Shown in pieces: positions 5,616-58,805 of a DNA stretch of 64,000 nucleotides. Position 1 is the stretch's first letter. Each line of letters starts with the position of its first letter. The notes beneath the pieces were generated by a model. That model searched no databases. It was given only the letters and a program-made list of their open reading frames with translations, and was not told the origin of the DNA. The stretch is taken from the IMG/VR virus record IMGVR_UViG_3300021060_000024, positions 11,577 to 75,576 of that record; one strand, written 5' to 3'. Source of the DNA: a virus. Lineage: Duplodnaviria; Heunggongvirae; Uroviricota; Caudoviricetes. Position numbers and translations under genes: made by a program.

Positions 5616-7822
5616 CTGCTCGCGTCTCGCGCCGCGGCGCCATCGGCGCGCTGCGCCGCCTGCTCACCGGCGTGGCCCCCGGCGCTCCGGGCTACCGCAC
5701 GAACTACGTGCCCAACCCCTCCTTCGAGGTCAGCGACGTGCCGGGCTCCCCGGACGGCCAGCGCTACGGCGGGGGCACGTTCTCGCGCGACACCACGGTC
5801 AAGCAGGTCGGCGCCGCCTCCCTCAAGCTCACCGCGACCAGCACCGTGGACTCCGGCCAGTGGGAGTCGATGGCGCTGGGCGCAGGCACCTACACGGCCT
5901 CGGTCTGGATCAAGACCGACAACGTCACGAACGCCTGCATGGTCCTGCGCGACCCGGGCTTCAACGACATCGGCAGCCAGACGCACCTCAGCGGCACCAA
6001 GGACTGGACGCGCTACTCCAACACCTTCACGCTGAGCGCGCCCACCACGGTGCAGATGCTCGTGGGCCTGGGCTCCTACGGCTCGACCAGCGCGGGCACG
6101 GTCTGGTTCGACGGCATGATGATCGAGGCTGGCTCCAACGTCGGCCCCTACTTCGACGGCGGCTACTCCGCGGCGGGCTCGACCGTGGCGTGGAGCGGCG
6201 GCTCCAACGCCTCCCCCTCCACCGAGAAGCGCCAGCCGGCCACGATCGCCACGCAGGCCGCGCTCAGTGCGAGCTCCACCCTCGGGGTCTCCCTGGCGAG
6301 CAGTGGCTCCGGTGCGAGCAACCCGCCGAGCATGTCCAACCTCTACAAGGCCTCGCAGCAGGTGGACAACTACGTCTCGGCCAACCCGAGCCTGTCGGTG
6401 ATCGCCGACCAGCCCCAGGCGCGGTGGATCAACACCCAGGGCGACGCAGACAACATGGGCGGCCTGGTCAGCGCTGCGGGCACCAAGACGCTGCTGATCT
6501 GCATCTACGCCATCCCCGGGCGCGACAACGGCCAGTACAGCGCTGGCGGCTTCCCTGACCGCGCCTCCTACCTGAACTTCCTGCAGACGGTCAAGACCAA
6601 GATCGGCACCAAGTCGGCCTTCATCTTCTTCGAGCCCGACGCGCTGGGCCTGACCAACGGCCTGAGCGCCTCGCTCAAGGCCGAGCGCATCGAGACGCTG
6701 CGCCAGGGCATCGACATCCTGGCCACGATCCCCAACGCCGAGACCTACATCGACGCCTCCAAGTGGATCTCGCCGTCGGACCAGGCCGGGCTGCAGGCCG
6801 CGGTCGACATCGCCAAGGTCTCGGGCATCGTCATGAACGTCTCGGGCTACGACTCCATGGACTCCTGCTACTCCTACGGCGAGGCGGTCCTGTCCGAGCT
6901 GGCCAACCGCGGCATCACCGGCAAGAAGTACATGATCGACTCCGGGCGCAACGGGGTCGGCCCGCTGACCGACGCCGATCGCCCGCTGGCCAACCCCTGG
7001 CTGGACACCTCCCAGGCCTGGTGCAACCCGCCCAAGCGCCGCCTGGGCCCGGTGCCTCAGGTGCCCTCGGGGCGGCCCAACTGCCGTGGCCTGGTGTGGG
7101 TCAAGAACCCCGGCGAGTCCGACGGCACGTTCCCCTCGACGTCGAACTCGACCTACTACGGCGAGAACGCCCCCAGTGCGGGCGCCTTCTGGCTCGTGCA
7201 GGCCAAGATGCTCGCGGGCACCGAGCCCAGTGGCGGCAGCGGCACCCCGGCCAACACCGGCTTCTCCGCTGTGGTGACGACCTTCGACGGCAACTACGGC
7301 GGCCTGAGCGACCGCTCGGCCGGGGTCAGCCTGGTGGGCGGGCGCGCGCGCCTGACCGCGGACACCTCCTACGCCAACATCTCCACGCCGGGCTCGTACA
7401 CGCTCAAGGAGTCCTCGGTCTACGCCCGGCTGTTCCCGCCGTCGGCCAGCGGGGCGACCCAGGCGGCCACGGTGCAGTTCCTGATCCGCTCCACCGCGGC
7501 CGCGGACGGCACCCGCCTGAACGCCGAGGTCAACACCTTCACCGGCAAGCTCACGATCGCCAGCGACTCGGGCTACTACGACGCCAACGCCGTCCAGCTC
7601 ACCTACGACGCCACGGCGCATGCCTTCCTGCGCTGGCGCGAGGCGGGCGGGACGGTCTACCTGGAGACGAGCTCGGACGGCAACAACTGGACCACGCGTC
7701 GCTCGCTGGCCACGCCCTCGTGGCTGACGGCGACCAACAACCAGCTCATGCAGTTCGTGGCCTACAAGGACGCCGGGGCCGCGGCCTACGCCGAGGTCGA
7801 CAACGTCAACACCACCTCCTGA
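5612..7822 (+). CDS. three-domain glycosidase: CBM4/9-like + GH6-like catalytic + ConA/LamG-like domain
   Basis: GH6 motifs LLICIYAIPGRDNG, IFFEPDALGL and LVWVKNPGESDG. N-terminal jelly-roll region (NPSFEVSD...WFDGMMIEAG). GTG start in a GTGA overlap with the upstream stop. Confidence 0.6.
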   Translation: MTARVSRRGAIGALRRLLTGVAPGAPGYRTNYVPNPSFEVSDVPGSPDGQRYGGGTFSRDTTVKQVGAASLKLTATSTVDSGQWESMALGAGTYTASVWIKTDNVTNACMVLRDPGFNDIGSQTHLSGTKDWTRYSNTFTLSAPTTVQMLVGLGSYGSTSAGTVWFDGMMIEAGSNVGPYFDGGYSAAGSTVAWSGGSNASPSTEKRQPATIATQAALSASSTLGVSLASSGSGASNPPSMSNLYKASQQVDNYVSANPSLSVIADQPQARWINTQGDADNMGGLVSAAGTKTLLICIYAIPGRDNGQYSAGGFPDRASYLNFLQTVKTKIGTKSAFIFFEPDALGLTNGLSASLKAERIETLRQGIDILATIPNAETYIDASKWISPSDQAGLQAAVDIAKVSGIVMNVSGYDSMDSCYSYGEAVLSELANRGITGKKYMIDSGRNGVGPLTDADRPLANPWLDTSQAWCNPPKRRLGPVPQVPSGRPNCRGLVWVKNPGESDGTFPSTSNSTYYGENAPSAGAFWLVQAKMLAGTEPSGGSGTPANTGFSAVVTTFDGNYGGLSDRSAGVSLVGGRARLTADTSYANISTPGSYTLKESSVYARLFPPSASGATQAATVQFLIRSTAAADGTRLNAEVNTFTGKLTIASDSGYYDANAVQLTYDATAHAFLRWREAGGTVYLETSSDGNNWTTRRSLATPSWLTATNNQLMQFVAYKDAGAAAYAEVDNVNTTS

Positions 7823-22424: not shown

Positions 22425-22670
22425 ATGAGCACCGACGACCCCAAGACCATCCCGACCCCGGTCAGCCCCAAGGTCTACTCCAGCACCGGCGCGGGTGCGG
22501 CGCTGCTGGCCCTGGGCTTCATCCTGCGCTACTACGGCCTGGACGTGCCCGACGCCGTCATCGGGGCCGTGGCCGTGATCGGCACGTTCGCCGCGGGCTA
22601 CATCACCCCCGACCGCCTGCGCGAGATCGGGGCCGTCTTCCAGCGCGGCCGCGGCGAGCACCGCGCGTGA
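22425..22670 (+). CDS. holin (2 TM, 81 aa)
   Basis: Helices GAGAALLALGFILRYYG and AVIGAVAVIGTFAAGYI. Lies immediately after the endolysin. Confidence 0.6.
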   Translation: MSTDDPKTIPTPVSPKVYSSTGAGAALLALGFILRYYGLDVPDAVIGAVAVIGTFAAGYITPDRLREIGAVFQRGRGEHRA

Positions 22671-22975
22671 TCACCCTGCTGGGTCAGCCTGCCGAGTGGA
22701 TGGATCGCGCAGCCTGCGCGGACCTGCGCACGAACATGTTCCCCTCGGTGCGCGACCCGGCAGGGCAGGCCGCGGCCAAGGCCGTCTGCAGGGGCTGCCC
22801 GGTGGAGGCCGAGTGTCGTGAGCTCGGCCTGGGCCAGGACAAGCAGGGCCGCGCCGAGGAGCGCTGGGGGGTCTGGGGCGGCCAGAACGGACCCCAGCGC
22901 GGGCGCACCGCGGCACGCCGCGCGAAGCACCCCACGAGGCGTTCCAAGATCATGCCCCCCACCCCCGAGGCATAA
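22667..22975 (+). CDS. WhiB-family [4Fe-4S] transcription factor
   Basis: Four Cys in AACADL...AVCRGCPVEAECRELGL, plus GVWGG and a basic tail. GTGA overlap with the holin. Confidence 0.7.
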   Translation: MITLLGQPAEWMDRAACADLRTNMFPSVRDPAGQAAAKAVCRGCPVEAECRELGLGQDKQGRAEERWGVWGGQNGPQRGRTAARRAKHPTRRSKIMPPTPEA

Positions 22976-42800: not shown

Positions 42801-43309
42801 CAGCCCTCCTCGCCCTCGTGCAGCCACTTGGCCAGGGCCAGCACGTCGCGGGTCTCCGCAATGCCGCCGAGCAGGTCAGTGGCCCGCTCCCAGGAGCGCT
42901 CGCGCCCCGTGACTTCCGGGGTCGGCGGCTCGACGTCGGCCGGCTTCGGGTGGACGATCCCGATCGTGTCACCCGGGCGCAGCGTGTGCTTGCGCAGGGC
43001 GCCGTCGGGGCTGAGGATCTCGACCTCGACATAGGTGAGGCTGGCGCCGATCAGGCGCACCTTGGTCTCATTCGTGCTCACGGGCTTCTCCTCGATGTAG
43101 GGCTCCAGCTGGCTGGGGCGGATGTAGAACCGGCGCCCCAGGTTGTCCTTGCACAGCCACCAGTGCGCGGTGATGTCAGCCCCCTCGGGAGCCGTGGAGC
43201 CGTTGACGATGGTCAGCACGTCGCCCACCATCAGCGACAACTGAACGCCGCGGTCGTCGGTCAGCCGCACCCGGTCGTCGGTGCGGAAGATGTGCCAGGG
43301 GCTGACCAT
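42800..43309 (-). CDS. hypothetical protein (169 aa)
   Basis: Track ORF, ATGA-coupled on both sides. Confidence 0.4.
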   Translation of the reverse strand: MVSPWHIFRTDDRVRLTDDRGVQLSLMVGDVLTIVNGSTAPEGADITAHWWLCKDNLGRRFYIRPSQLEPYIEEKPVSTNETKVRLIGASLTYVEVEILSPDGALRKHTLRPGDTIGIVHPKPADVEPPTPEVTGRERSWERATDLLGGIAETRDVLALAKWLHEGEEG

Positions 43310-44172
43310 CAGGACGGGGCGCCCGGGTTGACGTTCAGCGCGGTGCCCTGCGGGACGGGGATCACGGTGACCTTGCCGTCCTTGATCGCCTGGTAGGTGT
43401 TGTAGCCGTCAGGGCCCAGCACCTCCACGAGCTGGCGGATGGAGTCCAGCTCGGACTGCACCTGCACGTTGCGCTGCTGCTGGGCCGTGTTCTGCTCGAT
43501 GGCCACCTGGGTCTGCTGCAGCGCGTTCGCGAGCTCGTCGGGCAGCGTGGGCGTCGACAGCGACACGGCGAAGCCCGTGAAGTAGTCCCCGCCGGCGAGC
43601 TGGTTCACGTAGCCGGGCAGGAGCTCGTTGACCCGGCCCTCGATGTCCTTGCGGACCTTGGCGTCGGCGTAGATGGTCTTCCAGTCCACGCCCTGGGCGG
43701 CCTCGGTCAGGCTGCGCTGCAGCGGGCCGCGCAGGTAGGTCTCCATGAAGCCGGACCAGTTCTGCAGACCGTCCTTGCCGGCGCCGTACTTGCGCCCGAT
43801 GTTCTCGTGGAAGGCGCGCAGCACGTCGCAGTCGGTGTTCAGCTCGAAGGTCAGCGTGCCGACCTGGGCGAGCTGGACCTGGGTGTTGGCGCCCTGCTCC
43901 CCCGAGCCCGCGGCGATGAGCGCGAGCGCCCCGCCGTCCTGCTTCTCGCCGGTGCCGAAGTCGTAGGTGCGCTGGCCGGCGGGGTACTTGTAGTGGTCGT
44001 CCCCAGGCCCGTCCCAGGAGCGCTGGCCGGGGTCGATGCAGTGGTCGAAGCTGACGTTGGAGATCACGCCGTTCTCGTACTGCAGGCCCACCTCATCCAC
44101 GTCGGTGCTCATCTGGCTGCAGCCCGCCAGGGCCAGCACGGCCAGGGGCGCCAGGAGGGTCATCTTCTTCAC
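43309..44172 (-). CDS. lipoprotein with SPFH/band-7-like domain
   Basis: Lipobox LAVLALAGC after VKKM. GAGAGGA RBS. C-terminal ...IEQNTAQQQRNVQVQSELDSIRQLVEVLGPDGYNTYQAIKDGKVTVIPVP resembles SPFH C-termini. Confidence 0.4.
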   Translation of the reverse strand: MKKMTLLAPLAVLALAGCSQMSTDVDEVGLQYENGVISNVSFDHCIDPGQRSWDGPGDDHYKYPAGQRTYDFGTGEKQDGGALALIAAGSGEQGANTQVQLAQVGTLTFELNTDCDVLRAFHENIGRKYGAGKDGLQNWSGFMETYLRGPLQRSLTEAAQGVDWKTIYADAKVRKDIEGRVNELLPGYVNQLAGGDYFTGFAVSLSTPTLPDELANALQQTQVAIEQNTAQQQRNVQVQSELDSIRQLVEVLGPDGYNTYQAIKDGKVTVIPVPQGTALNVNPGAPS

Positions 44173-44378
44173 GGGGCACTCGTCCTCTCGATGGTGATCT
44201 TGAACTTGGTCTGGTGCTGGTCGCCCAGCCCGGTCAGCGTCATGTCGACGTTGGCGACGTTGGCCCCACGGGTGCGCATCACGGCGCTGGCGAAGACGCA
44301 CAGCTCGTCGTCGTACTCCCCGTCCGCCGAGGCCACGAAGTGCTCCGCAGCCTCGGCAGCCGTGATGGGGATGGTCAC
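44169..44378 (-). CDS. hypothetical protein (69 aa)
   Basis: GTGA-coupled to the lipoprotein gene. Confidence 0.3.
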   Translation of the reverse strand: MTIPITAAEAAEHFVASADGEYDDELCVFASAVMRTRGANVANVDMTLTGLGDQHQTKFKITIERTSAP

Positions 44379-44755
44379 GCCTCAGTCGGAGAGAGCTCGT
44401 CGGCGGCCGCCCGCAGGGTGGCGACCACCTGCTCCTTGGTGCGCCGGTGGGCGTCGTTGTACCGAGCGAAGCCCAGCTGGTTGAGGTTGTGGCTGACCAC
44501 GAACCTCTCCAGCACCCGCTGAGCCTCGGCATAGGCCTCGGCGGCGGCGTTCTGCTCGGCCTCGGAGCGCTTGTCCGGAGCCGAGGGGCCGACGTAGAGC
44601 TTGGTGACCACGGCCACCGCGCCCAGACCGCAGCAGGGCAGCTTCTCCACCGGAACGTCCAGGTCGTCGTACTCGATCGGGAACATCTGGCCCTGGATCC
44701 AGCCCACCTGCTCGATGTGGTCAGCCGCCTCGCGCAGCACCTGCTCGGTGTTCAC
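44375..44755 (-). CDS. AADH-PCC paralog family member P2
   Basis: VLREAADHIEQVGWIQGQMF...LPCCGLGAVAVV...ARYNDAH...LRAAADEL. Confidence 0.45.
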   Translation of the reverse strand: MNTEQVLREAADHIEQVGWIQGQMFPIEYDDLDVPVEKLPCCGLGAVAVVTKLYVGPSAPDKRSEAEQNAAAEAYAEAQRVLERFVVSHNLNQLGFARYNDAHRRTKEQVVATLRAAADELSPTEA

Positions 44756-45159
44756 GATCCGAGCCTGTTCGCGGCCGCGCGCATCGCGGCGGCGACGTCG
44801 GCCGCCGTGGTGTCTGCGCTGTCGGACCACCGCGGCACGGTGAAGTTGCCCCCCGACTTCTCGTCCACCACCGCGGCCAGGGCATCAACGGCCGCGGTGT
44901 CGAGAGCGGCCGTCGCGTCAGCCTCCTGGCCACCCTCGAACGTGACGGTGGCGTAGATGCTCATCCAGCCGCTCGGGTTGTGCGGGTCCTCGATGAAGTA
45001 GCCGGAGCTGACCGCGATGGCCCCCAGTGCGCAGCAGGAACGTGCGGCCAGGGGCTTGCTGCCGCCCCTCTCGAAGAAGCTCCCCTTGTACAGACCCACG
45101 GTCTCGATGTGGTCGGCGGCCTCGGTGAGAACCTGTGCCGGCGTCTTGGTCTCGCTCAT
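44752..45159 (-). CDS. AADH-PCC paralog family member P3
   Basis: VLTEAADHIETVGLYKGSFF...SCCALGAIAVS...VPRWSDSAD...MRAAANRL. Confidence 0.45.
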   Translation of the reverse strand: MSETKTPAQVLTEAADHIETVGLYKGSFFERGGSKPLAARSCCALGAIAVSSGYFIEDPHNPSGWMSIYATVTFEGGQEADATAALDTAAVDALAAVVDEKSGGNFTVPRWSDSADTTAADVAAAMRAAANRLGS

Positions 45160-45503
45160 GCTGCAGCCTCCTCGGCCTTGAGGCGGTCGGCGGTGGCGCG
45201 CATCCGCCGCAGCACCACCTCCTGGGTGATCTGGGGGTCGTCGTTCCAGGCCACGATGCGGTCGTGGGCGTAGCGCTCGCCGTAGCCCAGGTCGCGCGCA
45301 ACCGCGGCGAGGGCGTCACGCGAGGCGGACTCGCCCACGAAGAGGCTGACCCGGGGCGTCACGACGCGGATGGCGCCGACGACGCAGCAGGGGCGCTGGC
45401 TGTCGGGAGCCTCCACCCCCGAGCGGTAGTAGTGCCCGTCCTGGTTCAGCCCCACGGTCTCGATGTGGTCGGCCGCGGCGCGCAGCACCTGCTCGGCGTT
45501 CAC
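45156..45503 (-). CDS. AADH-PCC paralog family member P4
   Basis: VLRAAADHIETVGLNQDGHYY...PCCVVGAIRVV...VAWNDDPQ...MRATADRL. Confidence 0.45.
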   Translation of the reverse strand: MNAEQVLRAAADHIETVGLNQDGHYYRSGVEAPDSQRPCCVVGAIRVVTPRVSLFVGESASRDALAAVARDLGYGERYAHDRIVAWNDDPQITQEVVLRRMRATADRLKAEEAAA

Positions 45504-46306
45504 GCGTTCACCGGCTCGGTCAGGGCGGCCACGGCGGCCTCGATGGCCATGACGGCGTCGACCTCGGTGGTGTCCTCGCTGGGGACGTCGGCCGGGTCGG
45601 GGCCCTCCAGGCCCAGCAGCGCCTCGGGGACCTGCGTCAGGGCCGCGAGGGCCTTGATCTCCTTGCCCACCATCGCCAGGGCCTCGCCCATCGACTTCAT
45701 GGCCTCGGTGGCCGCCTCGCTCGTCGGCGTCCAGGTCGCCTGGCTCTTGAGGATGCTCACCTCGGCCTCGGTCAGGATCGAGTGGCGCTTGGGGCGCTGG
45801 CCCATGCGCTTGTGGGTGGCCCGCTGGCGCAGCCCGGCCATGCCCCAGCGCTCCACGGCCTCAGCCGCGCCCTGGAAGGCCCCGACGACGGTCTCGACCG
45901 TGACGGCCCCGTGGTCGTTCCATACCGGCACCGCCTGGTCGGTGTTGAGCTCGACCTCCAGGTAGTAGCGCAGCGCGAGCGCGGCCTCGCTGTAGATGTG
46001 GCGGGGGTCGTCCTCGGGCAGGTGTCCCCAGCCGTGCACGCCCGCGCCCTCGGCACCGAGGAGCAGGTCCTGCACGCCCGCGGCGATGCCGATGGCGCCC
46101 AGCGCACATGCCGGGGCGTGCTCGTAGTCCAGGTACTGCTCGACCTTGACGGTCTGCTCAGCGGCGCCGGGGCCATAGAGGTCGATGGGGCCGGGCACCA
46201 CGCGCTGCTTGACGGCGGGGCGGTAGAAGGCCCCGCGGGTCCAGCCGTGGGTCTGGATGTGCTCGGCCGCGCCGCGCAGCACGCCCGGGATGGTCAGAGT
46301 CGACAT
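45500..46306 (-). CDS. AADH-PCC paralog family member P5 (longer, C-terminal extension)
   Basis: VLRGAAEHIQTHGWTRGAFY...PACALGAIGIA...VPVWNDHG. Start at codon 117 of the track ORF. Confidence 0.45.
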   Translation of the reverse strand: MSTLTIPGVLRGAAEHIQTHGWTRGAFYRPAVKQRVVPGPIDLYGPGAAEQTVKVEQYLDYEHAPACALGAIGIAAGVQDLLLGAEGAGVHGWGHLPEDDPRHIYSEAALALRYYLEVELNTDQAVPVWNDHGAVTVETVVGAFQGAAEAVERWGMAGLRQRATHKRMGQRPKRHSILTEAEVSILKSQATWTPTSEAATEAMKSMGEALAMVGKEIKALAALTQVPEALLGLEGPDPADVPSEDTTEVDAVMAIEAAVAALTEPVNA

Positions 46307-46383
46307 GCGCACTCCTTGGTGGTGGTCGCCTCCGGCGAACCCGGCGGCGTGAGTGGAACTCTCGCGCACTGGACAAGGGCTTG

Positions 46384-49972: not shown

Positions 49973-50250
49973 GCGCTCAGCGCCTCCGGCGGCAGGGTCT
50001 GGTTGGCCGGGCGGACTGCGCCGGGCAGCAGCGGGGCCATCGGGCGCACCCCGCCGGGGCGGGTGTCGGCCTTGAGGTCGCGGCGCCGGTTCCAGGCCCG
50101 CACGCGGGCCCGCTCGTTGTCGCACACCATGCACTTCCAGGCACTCAGGGTGGTGCCGTCCGCGCGCAGGCCGTGCTGAGCTCGGGCGTGGGTCACGTCC
50201 CCGTGCAGCGGGCAGGGACGGGTCTCCTTGATGCGGGTGGAGCGGGGCAT
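49969..50250 (-). CDS. Cys-rich zinc-ribbon protein (93 aa)
   Basis: GGAGGA RBS. CPLHGDV...WKCMVCDNERARVRAW. Confidence 0.45.
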   Translation of the reverse strand: MPRSTRIKETRPCPLHGDVTHARAQHGLRADGTTLSAWKCMVCDNERARVRAWNRRRDLKADTRPGGVRPMAPLLPGAVRPANQTLPPEALSA

Positions 50251-50313
50251 GTCGTCCTCCGGGATGGGATGGCCCCGGCCCGCCGCAGCGAGCCGGGGCC
50301 GGTGGATGGGTGG

Positions 50314-50760
50314 TCAGTCCAGACTGACGGTCTCCCAGGGCTGGGCGCCCTGCTCGGCAGCGTCACGCTCCTTGGCCAGGCGGACAGCCTCGGCCCACGG
50401 CTTGCCGCAATCCTGGTACTCCTGAGCGCGGCGCAGCAGGTCGTGGGCTCGATCGTCCAGGCTGAGCAGGTCCCCGCCGGCCAGGCCGCCGACGGTGCAG
50501 CCCTCGTTGTAGGTGCCGACGTCGTCGATCGTCAGGCCGTTGTCGGCCAGCACCTGCCCGACGATGCAGCAGGGCTCGCCGGGGGCGTAGCGGGCGGCGA
50601 TGCCCTTGCGGGCGTTGGTGTCGTTGGTGGCGCCAGCGGTGTAGGTGTCGAAGAAGTACAGGCAGGTGCCGCCCATGTCTTCCAGGTTGCGCTCGGGCTG
50701 CTTGGCGGCGGCGGACTCCAGCGCGGTCAGGGCCTGCTCGAAGGTCAGGGACAGGGTCAC
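50314..50760 (-). CDS. divergent AADH-PCC paralog family member P6
   Basis: ...YAPGEPCCIVGQVLADNG... has the PCC-x-GA core. The N-terminal motif is divergent. Confidence 0.35.
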   Translation of the reverse strand: MTLSLTFEQALTALESAAAKQPERNLEDMGGTCLYFFDTYTAGATNDTNARKGIAARYAPGEPCCIVGQVLADNGLTIDDVGTYNEGCTVGGLAGGDLLSLDDRAHDLLRRAQEYQDCGKPWAEAVRLAKERDAAEQGAQPWETVSLD

Positions 50761-50792
50761 GGTGATCAGCTCTCTCTCGTGGTGGTGGTGGG

Positions 50793-51374
50793 TCAGGAGT
50801 TGGACAGGTCGACGTACTTCTCGGCGGACTCCAGCAGGGCCGCCAGCGTGGTGGTCGACAGAACGACCTCCCGGTCGCCGTGAGTGCCTTCGACCAGCGT
50901 GCGGCTGCTCTCCAGCACGGCCTGGGTGCGCTCGTTCAGAGCGGCGATGACGCCGGCGCGAGCGCGAGCGGCCTCGATCTCGATTCGCTGGACACGCTGG
51001 GCCCGCTCACGCTGAGCGATGCGAGCGGCCACCCCCTCGGCCCAGGGGCCGCGCAGGGTGGCCAGGCGCACCACCTCGACGGTGGTGCTCTCCTCGCCCT
51101 GGTCGAGGGTGTCGAAGCTGTACTTGGGCCCGGTCAGCCGGCACAGCACGCCACGGTCTGCGGAGGAGTCGTGGGACTCGGGCAGGCGTGCGGGGGCCTG
51201 CACGGTGGTGCCGTCCTCCAGTGTGATGACCACAGGCTCGGCGTCGCGGGTGATCCACGAGGAGCGCAGGCGCACGAACGGGCGCGAGTCCAGCACGGTG
51301 GCACGGGCGGGGTAGTCGTTGGTGCTGCGCTGGTAGGCGTAGACCTCGCCGACCTTGATCTCGGAACGCTTCAC
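50793..51374 (-). CDS. hypothetical protein (193 aa)
   Basis: Track ORF. A degenerate copy of the promoter cassette lies upstream (51385-51440). Confidence 0.4.
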   Translation of the reverse strand: MKRSEIKVGEVYAYQRSTNDYPARATVLDSRPFVRLRSSWITRDAEPVVITLEDGTTVQAPARLPESHDSSADRGVLCRLTGPKYSFDTLDQGEESTTVEVVRLATLRGPWAEGVAARIAQRERAQRVQRIEIEAARARAGVIAALNERTQAVLESSRTLVEGTHGDREVVLSTTTLAALLESAEKYVDLSNS

Positions 51375-51433
51375 AGTGATCTCCTCAGTGGTGGTGGTGG
51401 TGGGTAGAGCGTAGGCGGCGCGGGGTGGAGCGT

Positions 51434-51571
51434 CTAGTCGCGCAGGTGGTCGGGGTCGGGCTCGGTGGGCTCAGGGGCGTCGGGGCACCAGCCGTCGTTG
51501 TGGACGTAGTCGGGGCAGCCGCAGAGCAGGCAGTTGCCGTGACCGTCGTCGGTGAAGACGTAGTCGCTCAC
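51434..51571 (-). CDS. tiny Cys-rich peptide (45 aa)
   Basis: GTG in a GTGA overlap with the upstream tiny gene. GHGNCLLCGCPDYVHNDGWC. Confidence 0.25.
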   Translation of the reverse strand: MSDYVFTDDGHGNCLLCGCPDYVHNDGWCPDAPEPTEPDPDHLRD

Positions 51572-51702
51572 CAGCGGTACTCCTTCGGCAGGCTTCGGCG
51601 CAGCACGTGGCGCCGACGTCGGTAGGTGATCTCGCACGCGGCAGCCACCAGGACGGTTCCGCCGATCGTGACCATGGCCAGGGCGGCCAGGAACAGGCTC
51701 AC
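51568..51702 (-). CDS. tiny membrane peptide (44 aa)
   Basis: Hand-translated: VSLFLAALAMVTIGGTVLVAAACEITYRRRRHVLRRSLPKEYRW. Confidence 0.25.
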   Translation of the reverse strand: MSLFLAALAMVTIGGTVLVAAACEITYRRRRHVLRRSLPKEYRW

Positions 51703-51718
51703 AGTGATCAGCTCCAGG

Positions 51719-52258
51719 TCAGTAGCGGTCGGTGGCGGTGGAGATGGGCAGGGCCAGCCCCTGGGCCGTGGCCCACTGGCGGGCGGTGTACGAGCGCTCG
51801 GGGGTGCCGTCGGCGGCGTAGGTCACGACGTAGTGGAAGGCGACGCCGGGGAAGCGAGCGTCGTAGCGCACCTCGGGGCACGAGCGGTTGCCGTCCACGC
51901 GGCAGTCGAAGCGCGGATCGTCCTCCTCGACGACGGGCGCCGGCGCCGCGGGCAGCACCTCGGGGGCCACGACCTGCAGGCGCACGGCCGGCTGCACGAC
52001 GTCGGTGCGCAGGGCGGCGGTGGCCGCCTGCTGGGGGGTGGCCAGGGCCAGCACGGTCAGCAGGCCGGCGAGCAGGATCGGCAGCGTGGACAGCAGCGCG
52101 CGAGCGTGGCGCGGGGTGGGGCGACGGGTGGCGCGGTGACGAGCCGAGACGAGCCGCCCTGCGGATCGGCTCGTCGCGCGGTGACGAGCCGGGCGGGTGC
52201 GGCGGGTCAGGACGCGCAACGTGGCGGTGAGGGTGGGGGTGGCGGCGTGAGCAGACAT
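51719..52258 (-). CDS. secreted hypothetical protein (179 aa)
   Basis: Signal peptide LLSTLPILLAGLLTVLALATPQQAATAA. Driven by promoter cassette E1. Confidence 0.45.
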   Translation of the reverse strand: MSAHAATPTLTATLRVLTRRTRPARHRATSRSAGRLVSARHRATRRPTPRHARALLSTLPILLAGLLTVLALATPQQAATAALRTDVVQPAVRLQVVAPEVLPAAPAPVVEEDDPRFDCRVDGNRSCPEVRYDARFPGVAFHYVVTYAADGTPERSYTARQWATAQGLALPISTATDRY

Positions 52259-52288
52259 CAGGGGCCTCCGAGCGGTGGTGGTGGGCTT

Positions 52289-52355
52289 GTGGGTAGAACG
52301 TTACGGGGTAGAACGTGGCGGTGCAAGCATCGGCCCTGTGACCTACGTCACAGGG
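52289..52355 (-). promoter_or_regulatory. promoter/operator cassette E1 (variant)
   Basis: GTGGGTAGAACGTTACGGGGTAGAACGT plus perfect palindrome CCCTGTGACCTACGTCACAGGG. On the minus strand: TTGCAC, 17 bp, TAACGT. Confidence 0.5.
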
Positions 52356-52374
52356 CCGATAGCTGCGCGTCTGA

Positions 52375-52806
52375 TCAGATCGGCTGGCCCGCCAGAACGC
52401 GCGCCAACTCCTCCTCACTGACGACCCGGTCCTGGTCGAGCACCGGCTGGAAGTTGCCGCGGCGCGTGCGGACGACGTGATCCCAGCGGTTGCCGCGCAT
52501 GTTCGACAGGAGGATCTCGTGGTCTCCGGGGAGCGCCTTCACGTCGGCGGCGTCGAGCATCTCGCCGATGTAGATGTAGCGCCGACCAGCAGGGGCGCCG
52601 TCCGGCAGCCACTTCTCGTTGCCCTCGTCGTCCGTCCAGCGGACCCAGGTGCGCGCCTGGAGGCGCACCCCGAACCAGCGGCCGTCGTCGGGCATCTTCG
52701 GCAGGACGGCCTGTGGCGTGCCGCGTTCGACCTGCACCGAGGCGCCCTCCTCGCTCATGAACGACCCCGGGTAGAGGGGCGTGGCGTGGATGCGGTTCTC
52801 CTTCAT
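52375..52806 (-). CDS. hypothetical protein (143 aa)
   Basis: AAGGAGAG RBS. Track ORF. Confidence 0.45.
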   Translation of the reverse strand: MKENRIHATPLYPGSFMSEEGASVQVERGTPQAVLPKMPDDGRWFGVRLQARTWVRWTDDEGNEKWLPDGAPAGRRYIYIGEMLDAADVKALPGDHEILLSNMRGNRWDHVVRTRRGNFQPVLDQDRVVSEEELARVLAGQPI

Positions 52807-52843
52807 GGCCTTGCTCTCCTTCTGTCAGTAGTCCTGGGGATGG

Positions 52844-53059
52844 TCAGGTCAGGTACTGCAGGTCGATGCCGAGCATGTCGGCGAACGTGTCCACAGCGGC
52901 GGTGTTGCCGACGTCGATGCCCTCCTGCAGGCGGTCGACGGTGGCGCGGGTGGTGGCGTCCTCCAGGGCGAACCAGGGCGCGACGGCGTCGCGGACCTCG
53001 GTGGAGTCGACGGTGGCCGAGCCGGAGCCGTCGCGGGCGGTGACGCTGATCAGTGCCAT
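52844..53059 (-). CDS. hypothetical protein (71 aa)
   Basis: Internal ATG (MALISVTARDG...) of the track ORF. Its start abuts the Lsr2-like gene stop. Confidence 0.35.
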   Translation of the reverse strand: MALISVTARDGSGSATVDSTEVRDAVAPWFALEDATTRATVDRLQEGIDVGNTAAVDTFADMLGIDLQYLT

Positions 53060-53063
53060 GGGG

Positions 53064-53519
53064 TTAGTCCTCCAGGGTTGCGTTGGGGTTGCGCCGGCGC
53101 AGCCCGCCGAGGCGGTACTGACCGGCGCGGTGGGCGTCGAAGGTGTCCAGGGTGTCCCACTGGGTGCGGAACGGGCGCTCGGGGTGGGCCTGGTTGTAGG
53201 CCTTGACCAGCGCCAGGGGCAGCGTGCCACGGTCGGGCACATCCACCGGGGAGACCCGCCGCGCCCAGGCGCGCACCTCGGCGGCGCTGGCCCGGTCGGG
53301 CTTGACCTCGACGGGCTGGCGCGAGGTCTGGGTGTGGCCGGCCCAGCGGCCGGGGCCACCCTTGAGTCGTGGGACGGGTGTGGCGTAGGGCCGGCCGGGG
53401 TGGGCCCGGTTGTAGGCCTCGACGTAGACGTCGGCCAGGCGGCCGCGCGAGGTGACGGCGTCGGGCTCGATGTCGCGCAGCCAGGCGCGGACCTCAGCCA
53501 TGGTGGCGTACTCGCTCAT
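53064..53519 (-). CDS. protein with two tandem Lsr2-like C-terminal DNA-binding domains
   Basis: AEVRAWLRDIEPDAVTSRGRLADVYVEAYNRAHPGRP and AEVRAWARRVSPVDVPDRGTLPLALVKAYNQAHPERP, compared with Lsr2 [30 protein letters not shown]. Confidence 0.55.
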   Translation of the reverse strand: MSEYATMAEVRAWLRDIEPDAVTSRGRLADVYVEAYNRAHPGRPYATPVPRLKGGPGRWAGHTQTSRQPVEVKPDRASAAEVRAWARRVSPVDVPDRGTLPLALVKAYNQAHPERPFRTQWDTLDTFDAHRAGQYRLGGLRRRNPNATLED

Positions 53520-53521
53520 GG

Positions 53522-53944
53522 TCAGTAGCCGAACTGCAGCACGCGAATGGTCTCGGACTCCTCGGTGGTGGACATGACCGAGGCGATGAGCGCGATGGCC
53601 CAGGCGAACCGGCGGTAGGGGTCGGTGCGCTGGTCGGCCTTGAGCGCGTCCAGCAGTGCGCGGGCGGGGACGGCGGTGAGCCGGGCGCCGTACTTGTCCT
53701 CGGTCAGTACCTGCTGCGAGGCGCCCTCGGGGTCGAACATGGTCATGTCGCTGGGCACCTCGGTGCTGGTCTGGTAGAAGCGCTCGCCGGCGGCGCGGGC
53801 CTGGGCCAGCAGTGCACCGGTGGCGGTCTCGCGGCCGGCGTTGGCCAGGTCGATGGTGGCCAGTGTGCGGCAGTCGACCAGCGGGCCGTCCTGCATGTAC
53901 TCGGGGTACTCGCGGACGATGAACAGACGGGTGTCGTAGGACAT
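53522..53944 (-). CDS. hypothetical protein (140 aa)
   Basis: Track ORF. First gene downstream of cassette E2. Confidence 0.4.
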   Translation of the reverse strand: MSYDTRLFIVREYPEYMQDGPLVDCRTLATIDLANAGRETATGALLAQARAAGERFYQTSTEVPSDMTMFDPEGASQQVLTEDKYGARLTAVPARALLDALKADQRTDPYRRFAWAIALIASVMSTTEESETIRVLQFGY

Positions 53945-53987
53945 CGTGATCAGCTCCAGGTGGTGGGTGGTGGTGCTTGATGGGTAG

Positions 53988-54044
53988 AACGTTACGGGGT
54001 GGTGCGGGGCGGGTCAAGCCCCAGCTCTGTGACCTGCGTCACAC
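53988..54044 (-). promoter_or_regulatory. promoter/operator cassette E2
   Basis: Minus strand: GTGTGACGCAGGTCACAG ... TTGACC - 17 bp - TAACGT - TCTACCCATCA ... ACCACCACC ... GGAG - ATG. Confidence 0.55.
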
Positions 54045-54080
54045 CCGCCGGGGGCCGTGCTGGCCCCCGGCGGGCGGCGC

Positions 54081-55310
54081 TCACATGATGGCGTGGAGGA
54101 TGGCGGCCGCCATGAGCGGCGGTACGGCGTTGCCCACCTGCTGCTGCTGGGACGTCTTGCTGCCCTGCCAGGGGTAGTCGCGGTCGAAGGACTGCAGCAC
54201 GCCAGCCTCGGCCTGGGTCACGCGGACCGAGCCGGGGGTCTTCTGGCGCGGGGGGTCGCCAGCCTTGCGGTAGCCGGGCGCCGCGATGACGTCGCCCGCG
54301 AACGTGCCGACCACGGTCGGGGAGGTGTCGCCCTCGACGGCAGCCACGGGCTGCCAGCGCGTGCCGGTGGCGAGCGTGTCGCGCGGGTCGATGTCGCCCG
54401 ACTCCTGCCAGGTCACCGCGTTGCCGCGACCACCGAAATGGATCGTAGGGGCAGGAGTGGACTCGTGACGCACGGCCGTGTTGGCCTGGTTGCCGTTGTA
54501 GAACCACTGCCCGCGCGTGACCTTGCTGGTGACGGCAGCAGCGGGCTGCTCGGCGGTGCGCACGCCACGGGCGGCGGGGTCGCCGCCGGTGCCGTAGTTG
54601 GACCGGATGGCCTCGCCGTGGTGGGCGTCGAGCGCGTCGGCCATGGAGACCCACGAGGGCACGCCCTCGTCGCGGCGCTGGGGGTCGCGGGGGTAGTAGG
54701 CGCTGTGGGTGGGCTCAGGCAGGGACACCTCGCGCACCCGGGAGGCCACCAGCACGGCGCGGCGGCGAGTCTGCGGCACGCCGTACTGCTCGGACTTGAG
54801 CACGCCCGTGGCCACGCTGTAGCCCCACTCGCGCAGGTGCTCGGCGTAGGCCTCCCACACGGGCAGGACGGCGGGCACCTGCTCCAGCGCGACCCACTGG
54901 GGGCGCTGGTCGCGGATGACGGTCAGCGGGTGCAGGACCAGGACCGACCGGTCGTCGAGCGTGGCATCGGCCACGATCTCCACGGCCTGCTCGGGGCTGT
55001 AGCCGCAGCCGACCAGGTCGACAGCGTCGAGCAGGTGGCCCAGCGCAGCGCGACCGGCGCCCTTGCCAGCGGCCGTGAACGTCTGGCACGGCGGACTAGA
55101 GATGTAACCGACGTGGGCAATCAGATTGACCAGGCGCACGTCCCCGCGGATGCGCTGGTGACCAGCGGCCACGGCCGTGGCGCACGCGTTGGCGTCCCAC
55201 TCCACGCCCATGACACGGGCGGGGTCGACGCCGAGCAGGCGCAGCCCCTCGTCCCAGCCGCCGGGGCCGGCGAAGTCGTCGCGGATGTCGATGATCGTGG
55301 GGGTGGACAT
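54081..55310 (-). CDS. DNA (cytosine-5)-methyltransferase (orphan)
   Basis: Motif I FAGPGGW, motif IV SPPCQTFTAAGK, motif VI-like LEQVPAV, motif VIII QTRRRAVLVAS. Start MSTPTIIDI (the longer N-terminus in the track is promoter read-through). Confidence 0.8.
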   Translation of the reverse strand: MSTPTIIDIRDDFAGPGGWDEGLRLLGVDPARVMGVEWDANACATAVAAGHQRIRGDVRLVNLIAHVGYISSPPCQTFTAAGKGAGRAALGHLLDAVDLVGCGYSPEQAVEIVADATLDDRSVLVLHPLTVIRDQRPQWVALEQVPAVLPVWEAYAEHLREWGYSVATGVLKSEQYGVPQTRRRAVLVASRVREVSLPEPTHSAYYPRDPQRRDEGVPSWVSMADALDAHHGEAIRSNYGTGGDPAARGVRTAEQPAAAVTSKVTRGQWFYNGNQANTAVRHESTPAPTIHFGGRGNAVTWQESGDIDPRDTLATGTRWQPVAAVEGDTSPTVVGTFAGDVIAAPGYRKAGDPPRQKTPGSVRVTQAEAGVLQSFDRDYPWQGSKTSQQQQVGNAVPPLMAAAILHAIM

Positions 55311-55341
55311 GGTCGGTGCCTCCGTGGTGGGTGGTGCCGGG

Positions 55342-55409
55342 CTGATGGGTAGAACGTTACGGGGTGGCGGGGGGCCGGTCAACCCCTGGCAGCGTGACGT
55401 GCGTCACAC
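55342..55409 (-). promoter_or_regulatory. promoter/operator cassette E3
   Basis: GTGTGACGCACGTCAC palindrome, TTGACC, 17 bp, TAACGT. Confidence 0.55.
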
Positions 55410-55438
55410 CGGATGAGCCGGCCCCCCCAGCTGATGAT

Positions 55439-55942
55439 CTAGAAGCACGCCGAGCAGGTGCAGTGGCGGCGCTTGCCGGACTGGCAGCGGGGGGAGGGGT
55501 CGTGCGGGGGCAGCACCCCGTCGCGGCAGGACTGGCAGGGCTCGGACTCGCGCAGCAGCGCAGCCAGGCGCTCGACGTGGTTGCGCTGGTCGTCGGCGCG
55601 GGAGCGCAGCGTGGTGGCCAGGGCCACGGAGGATGCGTCGCGCATCTTGCGCAGGATGGTGCCGAGGTAGGCGCGCTCGCCCGCCAGGAGATCGGTGAGC
55701 CCGTCGCGGTCCAGCACCAGCAGCGTGGTGTCGTCGCTACCCACGTGCAGCACGACCGGCACACCGTCCAGCGTGGTGCCGTGGTGGGTGCCGACGGGGA
55801 GCATGCGGCCGGGGGTGGCGCGGGCAGTGCTGGCCAGCCCGTCGTGCAGCGGCATGCCGAACGTGTCGGCCGGGTCGGTGATCGTGACGTGCTGGTCGGA
55901 CAGGACGTGACCCAGGCGGGTGATGGTCTCGGACATGATCAT
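55439..55942 (-). CDS. hypothetical protein with Cys-rich C-terminus (167 aa)
   Basis: Starts MIMSE (ATGATCATG). C-terminal CQSCRDG...RCQSGKRRHCTCSAC. Confidence 0.4.
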   Translation of the reverse strand: MIMSETITRLGHVLSDQHVTITDPADTFGMPLHDGLASTARATPGRMLPVGTHHGTTLDGVPVVLHVGSDDTTLLVLDRDGLTDLLAGERAYLGTILRKMRDASSVALATTLRSRADDQRNHVERLAALLRESEPCQSCRDGVLPPHDPSPRCQSGKRRHCTCSACF

Positions 55943-56025
55943 GGCCTCCGTGGTGGTGGGTGGGTGGTGGGCGTGCCTGGCCCCGGTGCCGGTCCGGGTG
56001 CGCCCCACGGCGCCAGGCCAGTAGG

Positions 56026-57992: not shown

Positions 57993-58027
57993 GATCGTGA
58001 TCTCCTGTTCTCGGCCGCCCTGTGCGG

Positions 58028-58095
58028 CTGATGGGTAGAACGTTACGGGGGCCGAGGGTCGCTGTCCACCCCACACCGTGTGACCTGCATCACAG
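58028..58095 (-). promoter_or_regulatory. promoter/operator cassette E7
   Basis: CTGTGATGCAGGTCACAC palindrome, TGGACA, 17 bp, TAACGT. Confidence 0.5.
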
Positions 58096-58329
58096 AGCTC
58101 TGGGTGACCAAGCATCACTGTGGGTAGTGGCCGGCTCAGCCCCATACCTACCGTGCGCACACGCGCGTACCCGCGACCTACCACACCCATAGGTGTGTGT
58201 GCAATGCGTGGGTAGTGCATGGCCATGCATACCCACAACGGCCCTGTACGCCACGCTGCGCCCCTTTACCCCCGTAGTGGCACTACCACCCACGCATGCC
58301 CTGTTCGTGGCGCAGCGTGCATCGGTGCT

Positions 58330-58540
58330 GGTCACAGGCATGATCATTGTGTATGTAAGAACATTGTTTACATGTATGTCATGACATGTGATGCATACAT
58401 TGTGTTGCATGTGTATGCAATCACTACATGTAGTGATCACACTACATGTTGTTACATACGCATGTGATGTATGTATGTTGTGTGCGATGTAACACATAGT
58501 CATTGATCACTACACATAGTCATGCTCACTGTGTGTGTGC
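58330..58540. other. AT-rich palindrome/iteron island (candidate cos/pac or ori) between divergent blocks
   Basis: GC falls to about 35-40% over ~200 bp. Perfect 14-bp palindrome CACTACATGTAGTG. Repeated CATGTGATG(C/T)AT, ACATGT and TGATCAC(T)ACA. Flanked by direct repeats GTGGCCGGCT...ACCTAC(C/G)GTG at about 58127 and 58555. Confidence 0.45.
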
Positions 58541-58805
58541 CTATGCCTACCCACAGTGGCCGGCTACCTACGGTGATGGGTCATGCACGGAGAGCTCCGA
58601 CTACGGTGCGTAACGATCAAGAGCTCAGGGTGATGGGGGTGTGCATGGCCCTCCGCGTTTGTCAGGACATACCCCCACCCCTGGGGGGGTGACCCCTTGA
58701 TCAGCTTCGACGGCTGACCTGTGGAGAGGGGAAAAAACGGGCGGTCAAGTTCAAGAGCATCTGGCGTCACACCAGTAACACGGGCCACGCGGCTACGCTG
58801 CGGGC

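What the first reader, a model, noticed from the sequence alone, without database searches (positions are those of the whole stretch)
53064..53519. Protein with two tandem Lsr2-type DNA-binding domains and no oligomerisation domain
Both halves match the Lsr2 C-terminal AT-hook-like domain (RGR-containing ...VTSRGRLADVYVEAY...). Canonical Lsr2 has one such domain plus an N-terminal dimeriser. A covalent duplex could mimic an Lsr2 dimer bound to AT-rich DNA, for example the island at 58.3 kb, or could counter host Lsr2 silencing.
Basis: partly seen in the sequence, partly recalled or inferred. Interest (0 to 1): 0.5.

Follow-up and report, generated by a model that had tools for sequence, protein, structure and literature searches.

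The report
Phage protein with two Lsr2 DNA-binding domains
A gene in a high-GC actinobacterial phage encodes a 151-residue protein made of two copies of the DNA-binding half of the bacterial gene silencer Lsr2, without the half that lets Lsr2 polymerise; similar unstudied proteins occur in other phages, and what it does is untested.

Summary
Window 53064-53519 (minus strand) is a real 151-aa gene in a leftward, non-structural operon of a ~75-kb actinophage contig.

**Domains**
- The protein carries two Lsr2-type DNA-binding modules, residues 5-41 and 77-113.
- They are joined by a disordered Pro/Gly-rich basic linker and followed by a 34-residue tail.
- The second module passes Pfam PF23359 on its own. 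The first does not (11.3 vs 26.9 bits), but it is 51% identical to the second and matches independent Lsr2-domain profiles.
- Only module 1 has the RGR minor-groove motif. Module 2 has RGT.
- No Lsr2 dimerisation domain was found in the protein or anywhere in the window.

**Is the architecture unique?** No. About 30 metagenomic phage proteins of 105-156 aa have two such modules and nothing else. Some have three, and the module is also fused to other proteins. The closest relatives are 76-83-aa single-module proteins with the same conserved tail.

**Function** is inferred only. My best reading is a bivalent DNA binder that cannot polymerise and modulates or competes with host Lsr2.

**Proposed target.** The island at 58.3 kb is the only sub-50% GC stretch in the window, but it has just one A/T run of 4 or more bases.

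This is a new variant of a known kind, of moderate interest.

The parts
53064..53519 (-). Whole gene, 151 aa plus stop. It is the eighth gene of a tightly packed leftward operon: a 2-nt gap to the upstream gene (stop at 53522-53524) and a 4-nt gap to the downstream ATG at 53059.
53397..53507 (-). Module 1 (residues 5-41), an Lsr2-type DNA-binding domain. Predicted helices are 7-17 and 30-39. R11 aligns with Lsr2 R84. The loop is one residue shorter than in Lsr2 (RGRLADV against RGRIPADV).
53439..53447 (-). RGR motif of module 1 (R25-G26-R27; codons CGC GGC CGC).
   Evidence: Role of RGR from PMC8476142.
53298..53384 (-). Linker (residues 46-74). It is Pro/Gly-rich and basic (pI 11.7) and is predicted disordered (pLDDT <50 for residues 57-73). 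Its first part (PVPRLKGGPGRWAGH) aligns with the post-domain segment of the single-module relatives, including an invariant Trp.
53181..53291 (-). Module 2 (residues 77-113), an Lsr2-type DNA-binding domain that passes the Pfam cut-off on its own. Predicted helices are 79-89 and 102-111.
53223..53231 (-). RGT in place of RGR in module 2 (R97-G98-T99; codons CGT GGC ACG).
   Evidence: The closest single-module relatives have RG followed by M, L, S or Q.
53067..53168 (-). C-terminal tail (residues 118-151). A low-confidence helix is predicted at about 120-138. The basic motif YRLGGLRRR (residues 135-143, nt 53091-53117) is conserved as EQRRLGGRNR in the single-module relatives.
58311..58550 (.). 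Candidate target only; no link to the protein is shown. This is the sole stretch below 50% GC in the window. It lies in the ~810-bp gap between the leftward operon that contains this gene and the rightward terminase operon.

Best explanation
**Shown**
- A non-structural gene of an actinobacteriophage encodes a basic (pI 10) 151-aa protein.
- The protein consists of two diverged Lsr2-type helix-loop-helix DNA-binding modules, a ~30-residue linker predicted to be disordered, and a conserved basic tail.
- No Lsr2 N-terminal dimerisation or oligomerisation domain was detected.
- It looks like an old tandem duplication, or a fusion, of a ~77-aa unit of 'module plus tail' that circulates as a single-module gene in other phage-like contigs.

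**Inferred**
- The protein binds the DNA minor groove with two tethered modules. This gives avidity, as the three AT hooks do in HMGA1.
- It cannot join or form Lsr2 filaments.
- When made during infection, it most likely alters host Lsr2 occupancy. It would occupy the lower-GC DNA that Lsr2 targets without building a silencing or bridging polymer, so it acts as a competitor or modulator rather than a silencer.
- Module 1 (RGR) would be the AT-selective anchor. Module 2 (RGT) plus the basic tail would add weaker or differently specific contacts.
For: - **Domain assignment and internal repeat:**
- **Structure:** AlphaFold2 gives two independent modules at pLDDT 86-95, a linker below 50, and pTM 0.39, so no fixed mutual arrangement. 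The best PDB fold match is the Lsr2 C-domain 2KNG, at rmsd 1.2 Å over 32 columns.
- **No N-terminal domain** in the protein or the window.
- **Conserved DNA-contact positions:** R11 and R83 (equivalent to Lsr2 R84), W13 and W85, G26 and G98 are invariant or nearly so across the tandem family.
- **Phage context:**
  - TerL is ~50% identical to those of Streptomyces, Gordonia and Arthrobacter phages.
  - The contig encodes a portal protein, plus Prim-Pol/D5 and a lysin.
  - No integrase was seen among the larger ORFs scanned.
- **Position:** the gene lies in the operon that starts at the only low-GC island.
- **Literature:**
  - RGR inserts into the minor groove (PMC8476142).
  - Oligomerisation is needed for silencer function (PMC7074111).
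  - Lytic Streptomyces and Microbacterium phages carry the mirror-image truncation, the N-terminal domain only, proposed to act as a dominant negative. Host Lsr2 affects productive infection (PMC10066036).
Against: - No binding, competition or expression data exist.
- Module 2 lacks the second arginine of RGR, and the closest single-module relatives consistently lack it too. AT-selective minor-groove binding by that module is therefore doubtful.
- The phage has almost no canonical A/T tracts: 14 runs of 4 or more and 2 runs of 5 or more in 64 kb. The low-GC island contributes just one.
- The conserved tail might mediate self-association or partner binding, which would change the model. Its structure is not predicted with confidence (pLDDT ~50).
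- Host Lsr2 can be needed for infection, so antagonising it is not obviously beneficial.
Confidence: 0.4

Rival explanations
1. Covalent Lsr2-dimer mimic. The two modules bind two different duplexes, or distant sites, through the long linker. The protein would then act as a minimal DNA bridger or compactor, for example to organise phage DNA or to condense and shut off the host nucleoid.
For: It has two DNA-binding modules per chain, like an Lsr2 dimer. The flexible ~30-residue linker leaves the modules without a fixed mutual arrangement. Related phage proteins that also lack the N-terminal domain are annotated 'Lsr2-like DNA bridging protein'.
Against: Silencing and compaction by Lsr2 rely on higher-order oligomers, not only on dimers (PMC7074111; PMC3374832). 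The modules are not equivalent (RGR against RGT). Those annotations are homology labels, not experiments.
Confidence: 0.25
2. DNA-tethered adaptor. The modules only anchor the protein on DNA. The conserved tail (a helix plus RLGG-basic motif) recruits or blocks a host or phage partner such as RNA polymerase, Lsr2 or a replication factor.
For: The tail motif is conserved between this protein and the 76-81-aa single-module relatives: AGQYRLGGLRRRN against AEQRRLGGRNRHR, QEKRRIGGRNR, REQRVLGGLNK and AEQRRRGGLNR. The Lsr2 DNA-binding module is often used as an add-on. It is fused to HNH, to Ku, to BRCT and to a 1452-aa protein.
Against: The tail has no family match and no confident structure. No partner is identifiable from the sequence.
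Confidence: 0.15
3. Permuted silencer. The C-terminal tail mediates self-association, so the protein oligomerises after all and works as a complete Lsr2/CgpS-like xenogeneic silencer with a rearranged domain order.
For: A helix is predicted at residues 120-138. The tail is conserved in relatives that have only one DNA-binding module, and such proteins would need to dimerise to bridge.
Against: Helix confidence is low (pLDDT ~50-60). There is no similarity to the Lsr2 N-terminal domain. No integrase or lysogeny module was seen, so a CgpS-like role in keeping a prophage silent is not indicated.
Confidence: 0.1
4. Sequence-specific regulator of the phage's own control region. The two modules read the repeated motifs of the 58.3-kb island rather than AT-rich DNA in general.
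For: The island lies at the head of the operon that holds the gene. It is packed with palindromes and repeats, including ATCACTACATGTAGTGAT in three copies, ACACATAGTCAT in two, and GTGGGTAG/CTACCCAC. The RGT variant could change specificity.
Against: Lsr2-type modules contact the minor groove through a short loop and are not known to read long specific sequences (PMC8476142). The phage has conventional HTH/MerR and WhiB regulators that could serve the island. No spacing argument links the repeats to a two-module protein.
Confidence: 0.1

Closest known systems
Lsr2 of Mycobacterium and Streptomyces, and prophage CgpS of Corynebacterium glutamicum (xenogeneic silencers; PF11774 + PF23359; PDB 2KNG, 6QKP)
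   Same: The DNA-binding fold and sequence family are the same in both modules. Module 1 has the RGR loop, and both modules have the arginine equivalent to R84. The host range is actinobacterial.
   Different: There is no N-terminal dimerisation/oligomerisation domain. There are two DNA-binding modules in one chain instead of one. Module 2 has RGT. An extra conserved C-terminal tail is present.
Uncharacterised metagenomic phage proteins with two (rarely three) PF23359 modules and nothing else, 105-156 aa (e.g. P0005, P0020, P0023, P0031, P0038; P0011 has three)
   Same: The architecture is the same: module, ~30-40-residue linker, module, with no N-terminal domain. The genes sit among small ORFs of 65-129-kb phage-like contigs.
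   Different: Identity is only 24-36%. Their linkers share a conserved Gly-Arg that is not seen here. Most have RGR in both modules and no RLGG tail. This protein is nearer to the single-module family.
Single-module 76-83-aa phage proteins (P0015, P0068, P0069, P0070, P0017)
   Same: These are the best matches, at 33-43% identity to the module 2 unit in the alignments and up to 52% in local alignments. They share the AHPxxP...W extension, and most share the RLGG basic tail. RG is followed by a non-arginine, as in module 2. The context is phage-like, with WhiB, HNH and RNA ligase genes.
   Different: They have one module per chain. Here the unit occurs twice, the first copy has lost the tail, and that copy carries RGR.
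'Lsr2-like DNA bridging protein' of isolated Streptomyces phages (Wakanda gp233 and gp234, Bmoc gp7)
   Same: They have no N-terminal Lsr2 domain. They have one strong DNA-binding module plus a weak second RGR-containing module (10-14 bits).
   Different: The second module is degenerate. gp234 and gp7 carry a Cys-rich C-terminal domain instead of the RLGG tail. tblastn of this protein against the phage collection did not find them.
Truncated phage Lsr2 (N-terminal oligomerisation domain only, <80 aa) of lytic Streptomyces and Microbacterium phages, and H-NST of E. coli
   Same: Both are mobile-element-encoded half-silencers proposed to interfere with the host silencer (PMC10066036; PMC8612146).
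   Different: They are the mirror image. Those proteins keep the oligomerisation half and would poison filaments. This one keeps, and doubles, the DNA-binding half and would compete for DNA.
HMGA1 (eukaryotic AT-hook protein)
   Same: Several RGR-type minor-groove modules are strung on a flexible chain and bind as a monomer by avidity (PMC8476142).
   Different: It is not homologous. AT hooks are short peptides, not helix-loop-helix domains.

Membership tests
Lsr2 family (xenogeneic silencer) | DNA-binding domain matching Pfam PF23359 above the gathering score | tested here: met
   The whole protein scores 32.1 bits against 26.9. Module 2 alone scores 28.8.
Lsr2 family (xenogeneic silencer) | The second copy (module 1) is also an Lsr2-type domain | tested here: met
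   It fails Pfam alone, at 11.3 bits. It is nevertheless 51% identical to module 2 over 45 residues, E 2e-13. It scores 17-19 bits (iE ~1e-7) against an HMM built only from canonical Lsr2 domains, and 27-29 bits against a leave-one-out tandem-family HMM. It has the same predicted fold.
Lsr2 family (xenogeneic silencer) | RGR AT-hook-like loop plus the arginine equivalent to R84 | tested here: inconclusive
   Module 1 has R25-G26-R27 and R11. Module 2 has R97-G98-T99 and R83. One module meets the feature and the other does not.
Lsr2 family (xenogeneic silencer) | N-terminal dimerisation/oligomerisation domain (PF11774) | tested here: not met
   There is no PF11774 hit at E<=10. An HMM of ten Lsr2 N-terminal domains gives negative bits on the protein, and a best E of 1.1 over the six-frame translation of the window. 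The start codon is fixed by the codon-position GC pattern.
Lsr2 family (xenogeneic silencer) | Two-helix fold of the Lsr2 C-domain | tested here: inconclusive
   AlphaFold2 helices are at pLDDT ~90. The top Foldseek PDB hit is 2KNG at rmsd 1.2 Å over 32 columns, but E is 2.9 because the domain is so small.
Lsr2 family (xenogeneic silencer) | Binds AT-rich DNA, bridges DNA and silences genes | not testable with these tools
   This needs EMSA, bridging assays and ChIP.
Tandem Lsr2-DBD-only phage proteins (uncharacterised) | Two PF23359 modules, a ~30-40-residue linker and no other Pfam domain | tested here: met
Tandem Lsr2-DBD-only phage proteins (uncharacterised) | Conserved Gly-Arg in the linker that most members share | tested here: not met
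   In alignment A3 the consensus has a conserved GR in the linker. This protein has a Pro/Gly-rich segment without it.
Single-module 'DBD plus RLGG tail' phage proteins | Module with RG followed by a non-arginine, the AHPxxP...W extension, and a basic RLGG tail | tested here: met
   The module 2 unit (residues 75-151) aligns over its full length with P0015, P0068, P0069 and P0070. V, W, A, N, A, H, P, P and G are invariant. Module 1 keeps the extension but not the tail.

The most novel reading that the evidence does not exclude
Phages of high-GC actinobacteria carry a so-far undescribed class of counter-silencers made only of Lsr2 DNA-binding modules, in one to three copies. These proteins would outcompete or remodel host Lsr2 on DNA without polymerising. 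They would be the DNA-binding counterpart of the N-terminal-only 'dominant-negative' phage Lsr2 and of H-NST. In this protein, the duplication and the conserved RLGG tail would tune affinity or recruit a partner.
Probability: 0.2. Interest if true: 0.65.

Novelty: new variant of a known kind. Interest (0 to 1): 0.42.

Why it matters
**Why Lsr2 matters.** Lsr2 silences foreign DNA, virulence genes and antibiotic gene clusters in actinobacteria. It also influences whether mycobacteriophages infect productively.

**What is already described.** Phage-encoded Lsr2 relatives have been catalogued as full-length proteins or as N-terminal-only truncations.

**What is new here.** A family made only of DNA-binding modules, often doubled, has not been discussed in the papers I could search. 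If such proteins displace or reshape host Lsr2, they would be natural tools for de-silencing cryptic Streptomyces gene clusters. They would also be a further route by which phages manage host chromatin.

**If they are simple DNA binders,** the finding is mainly an annotation refinement. In that case 'Lsr2-like DNA bridging protein' labels on proteins that lack the oligomerisation domain should be read with care.

Tried and rejected
- **Nucleotide search.** Megablast of window 50000-56000 against 50,697 phage records gave no match.
- **Protein search against phages.** tblastn of the protein found only one weak hit, in Thermobifida phage P1312. tblastn with tandem relatives P0031, P0005 and P0038 found nothing.
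- **Word-indexed protein search** with the single sequence found only the protein itself. The exhaustive HMMER search gave just 18 hits at E<=1e-3 in 1.84 billion representatives.
- **IMG/VR scan.** The single-protein scan gave two single-module matches.
- **GTDB genome scan** gave only two single-module fusions, in Tessaracoccus and in an Actinomycetes MAG. One is a 244-aa protein with a C-terminal Lsr2 module. There is therefore no prophage copy and no clue to the host.
- **NCBIfam** gave no meaningful match.
- **Neighbouring genes** have no informative Pfam, PHROG or NCBIfam hits.
- **Tail structure.** A second AlphaFold2 run on residues 75-151 with the single-module relatives did not give a confident tail (pLDDT ~49).
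- **Promoters and terminators.** The sigma-70 and terminator scan of the island found nothing.
- **Longer protein with a hidden N-terminal domain.** The upstream TTG at 54017 would give 317 aa. I rejected this on the codon-position GC pattern.
- **Two genes fused by an assembly error.** I rejected this because GC3 is continuous across the gene and the ORF is identical on an ENA contig and a Logan contig. The two may derive from the same sample.
- **Literature.** Four searches found no description of tandem Lsr2 DNA-binding domains.

Full report
**1. The gene**

The finding's coordinates are exact. An ORF runs from ATG 53519 to the stop at 53064-53066 on the minus strand and encodes 151 aa.

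It is coding. GC at codon positions 1/2/3 is 0.75/0.55/0.93, and GC3 is 0.86-0.98 in each of its four segments. The ORF list offers a longer in-frame version from a TTG at 54017. That extension has GC3 of 0.50 and overlaps a 140-aa gene whose own frame has GC3 of 0.94. ATG 53519 is therefore the start.

The gene is packed between neighbours, with a 2-nt gap upstream and a 4-nt gap downstream. It lies in a run of about 16 minus-strand genes from 57992 down to about 49631. The same 151-aa product was called on a 75.6-kb ENA metagenome contig and on a Logan contig.

**2. The host element**

The element is a phage of actinobacteria.
- The contig encodes an SPP1-type portal.
- Its large terminase is ~50% identical to those of Streptomyces, Gordonia and Arthrobacter phages.
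- It has tail genes, an amidase lysin, Prim-Pol/D5 helicase, a YqaJ exonuclease, endonuclease VII, a C5 methyltransferase and a WhiB.
- GC content is ~71%.
- There is no nucleotide-level relative among 50,697 phage records.
- No integrase appeared among the larger ORFs I scanned. Not every ORF was scanned, and ~11 kb of the contig lies outside the window.

**3. Two Lsr2-type modules**

Pfam PF23359 (Lsr2 DNA-binding domain) hits the protein at 32.1 bits against a gathering score of 26.9, with two stretches. Scanned separately, the C-terminal half passes at 28.8 bits. The N-terminal half does not, at 11.3 bits and E 0.23.

Four independent lines show that module 1 is nevertheless a true copy:
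- It is 51% identical to module 2 over 45 residues without gaps (E 2e-13).
- In the exhaustive search it matches other PF23359 proteins through module 1 (P0008 and P0017).
- An HMM I built only from the DNA-binding domains of ten full-length Lsr2 proteins scores it at 17-19 bits (iE ~1e-7), against 29-31 bits for module 2. A tandem-family HMM built without the query scores the two modules at 27-29 and 35 bits.
- AlphaFold2 predicts the same helix-loop-helix for both modules (helices 7-17/30-39 and 79-89/102-111) at block-mean pLDDT of 86-95.

The best Foldseek match in the PDB is the Lsr2 C-domain 2KNG, at 1.2 Å over 32 columns and 41% identity. The E-value of 2.9 is not significant for so small a domain. 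phmmer against PDB sequences also puts Lsr2 first, at E 0.05.

The lower Pfam score of module 1 fits a one-residue-shorter loop (RGRLADV against RGRIPADV).

**4. No oligomerisation domain**

PF11774 is not detected at E<=10. An HMM of ten Lsr2 N-terminal domains gives negative scores on the protein. It finds nothing in any of 943 six-frame segments of the window, where the best E is 1.1. Within the window, the phage does not supply that half separately either.

**5.

- *Only module 1 has RGR* (R25-G26-R27). Module 2 has R97-G98-T99. In Lsr2 the two arginines lie along the minor-groove floor, and replacing both with alanine nearly abolishes binding. R84 contacts phosphate (PMC8476142). Both modules keep the R84 equivalent (R11 and R83).
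- *The linker* (residues 46-74) is Pro/Gly-rich and basic (pI 11.7). It is predicted disordered, and pTM is 0.39, so the modules have no fixed mutual arrangement.
- *A 34-residue tail follows module 2.* It carries a motif, AGQYRLGGLRRRN, that is conserved in the closest relatives.

**6. Relatives**

The protein itself is rare. It has one cluster member and a few contigs, and only 18 hits at E<=1e-3 among 1.84 billion representatives.

The architecture is not rare. A profile search returned about 30 proteins of 105-156 aa with two PF23359 modules and nothing else. Other arrangements also occur:
- Some proteins have three modules (P0011, and P0004, which also has an N-terminal domain).
- The module is fused to an HNH nuclease (P0003), to a 563-aa protein (P0002), to a 1452-aa protein (P0009) and to BRCT (P0066).
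- A Ku-Lsr2 fusion is on record in Cluster J mycobacteriophages (PMC8612146).

Two tandem members that I looked up lie among arrays of tiny ORFs in 65-129-kb phage-like contigs.

Isolated Streptomyces phages carry related proteins annotated 'Lsr2-like DNA bridging protein': Wakanda gp233 and gp234, and Bmoc gp7. These also lack the N-terminal domain and have one strong module plus one weak one.

The closest relatives of this protein are single-module proteins of 76-83 aa (P0015, P0068, P0069, P0070, P0017). They share three features:
- RG followed by M, L, S or Q.
- The AHPxxP...W extension.
- The tail EQRRLGGRNR.

One of them sits in a phage-like contig with WhiB, HNH and RNA ligase genes.

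Aligning the two halves of this protein with those units shows that it is two such units in tandem. The first unit has lost the tail and carries RGR. The duplication is old: 61% DNA identity in the core and 51% at third positions.

**7. The proposed target**

The island is real. In 60-nt windows, 58311-58550 is the only stretch of the 64 kb below 50% GC, with a minimum of 0.32. It lies in the ~810-bp gap between the leftward operon that holds this gene and the rightward terminase operon.

However, it contains a single A/T run of 4 or more bases (TTTA). The whole window has 14 such runs and two runs of 5 or more. The island consists of specific palindromes and repeats.

Low-GC divergent intergenic regions have been proposed as Lsr2 sites in mycobacteriophages (PMC10066036). 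The link is therefore plausible but unproven, and the sequence is not a classic RGR site.

**8. Mechanism**

*Shown:* the anatomy, the homology, the absence of the polymerising half, and the phage non-structural context.

*Inferred:* a monomeric, bivalent minor-groove binder, analogous to multi-AT-hook HMGA1. It cannot enter Lsr2 filaments, so it most likely competes with or modulates host Lsr2 on DNA. It would be the mirror image of the N-terminal-only phage Lsr2 and of H-NST, both thought to act as dominant negatives. I put this at about 0.4.

*Rivals:*
- A covalent dimer mimic that bridges DNA (0.25).
- A DNA-tethered adaptor whose tail recruits a partner (0.15).
- A permuted silencer that oligomerises through the tail (0.1).
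- A sequence-specific regulator of the island (0.1).

None of these can be separated from the others without experiments.

**9. Novelty and score**

Phage-encoded Lsr2 relatives are well catalogued as full-length proteins or N-terminal truncations. I found no description of proteins made only of tandem DNA-binding modules in four literature searches. Absence from the open-access library is not proof.

I rate this a new variant of a known kind. Function is open, and there is a realistic but unproven chance of a new counter-silencing strategy. Interest is 0.42.

Noticed in passing
window 58000-58800 (core 58311-58550): This is the only stretch of the window below 50% GC, in an ~810-bp gene-free gap between divergent operons. 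It holds a perfect 18-bp palindrome, ATCACTACATGTAGTGAT (58420-58437), with two imperfect copies. ACACATAGTCAT occurs twice (58492, 58512). GTGGGTAG/CTACCCAC motifs occur in both flanks. No sigma-70 consensus promoter was found. It could be an origin, an operator array or the joined genome ends.
   Followed up: partly
window 22667-22975 (+): A WhiB-family transcription factor gene (PF02467, E 1.6e-12) lies just after the lysis genes. The phage therefore carries both of the regulator types, WhiB and Lsr2-type, that have been surveyed in actinophages.
   Followed up: partly
window 5612-7822 (+) and 4164-4931 (-): A 736-aa protein carries a glycosyl hydrolase family 6 (cellulase-type) domain (PF01341, E 4.6e-38). 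It sits beside an NlpC/P60 + LysM protein, within the virion-gene region. This is unusual for a phage.
   Followed up: no
whole window, coding regions: A/T runs are strongly avoided at codon junctions. There are 7 runs of 4 or more nt, against 30.3±5.3 after shuffling codon order within genes. There are 59 runs of 3 or more, against 191±11. This may be a general dinucleotide bias of high-GC actinobacteria or avoidance of Lsr2 sites. No host genome was available as a control.
   Followed up: partly
window ~44375-46369 (-) (= L001 17214-19145): Four adjacent paralogous DUF6197 genes are followed by a Band_7/SPFH-domain gene (43309-44172).
   Followed up: no
window 54081-55310 (-): A cytosine-5 DNA methyltransferase (PF00145; TIGR00675, 83.7 bits) lies two genes upstream of the Lsr2-type gene in the same operon. 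It is probably an anti-restriction function.
   Followed up: no
L009 (Streptomyces phage Wakanda 113314-114279) and L013 (Streptomyces phage Bmoc 4180-4698): Genes annotated 'Lsr2-like DNA bridging protein' in isolated Streptomyces phages lack the Lsr2 N-terminal domain. They have one strong DNA-binding module and one weak one. gp234 and gp7 add a Cys-rich C-terminal region. The 'bridging' label is not backed by the domain content.
   Followed up: partly
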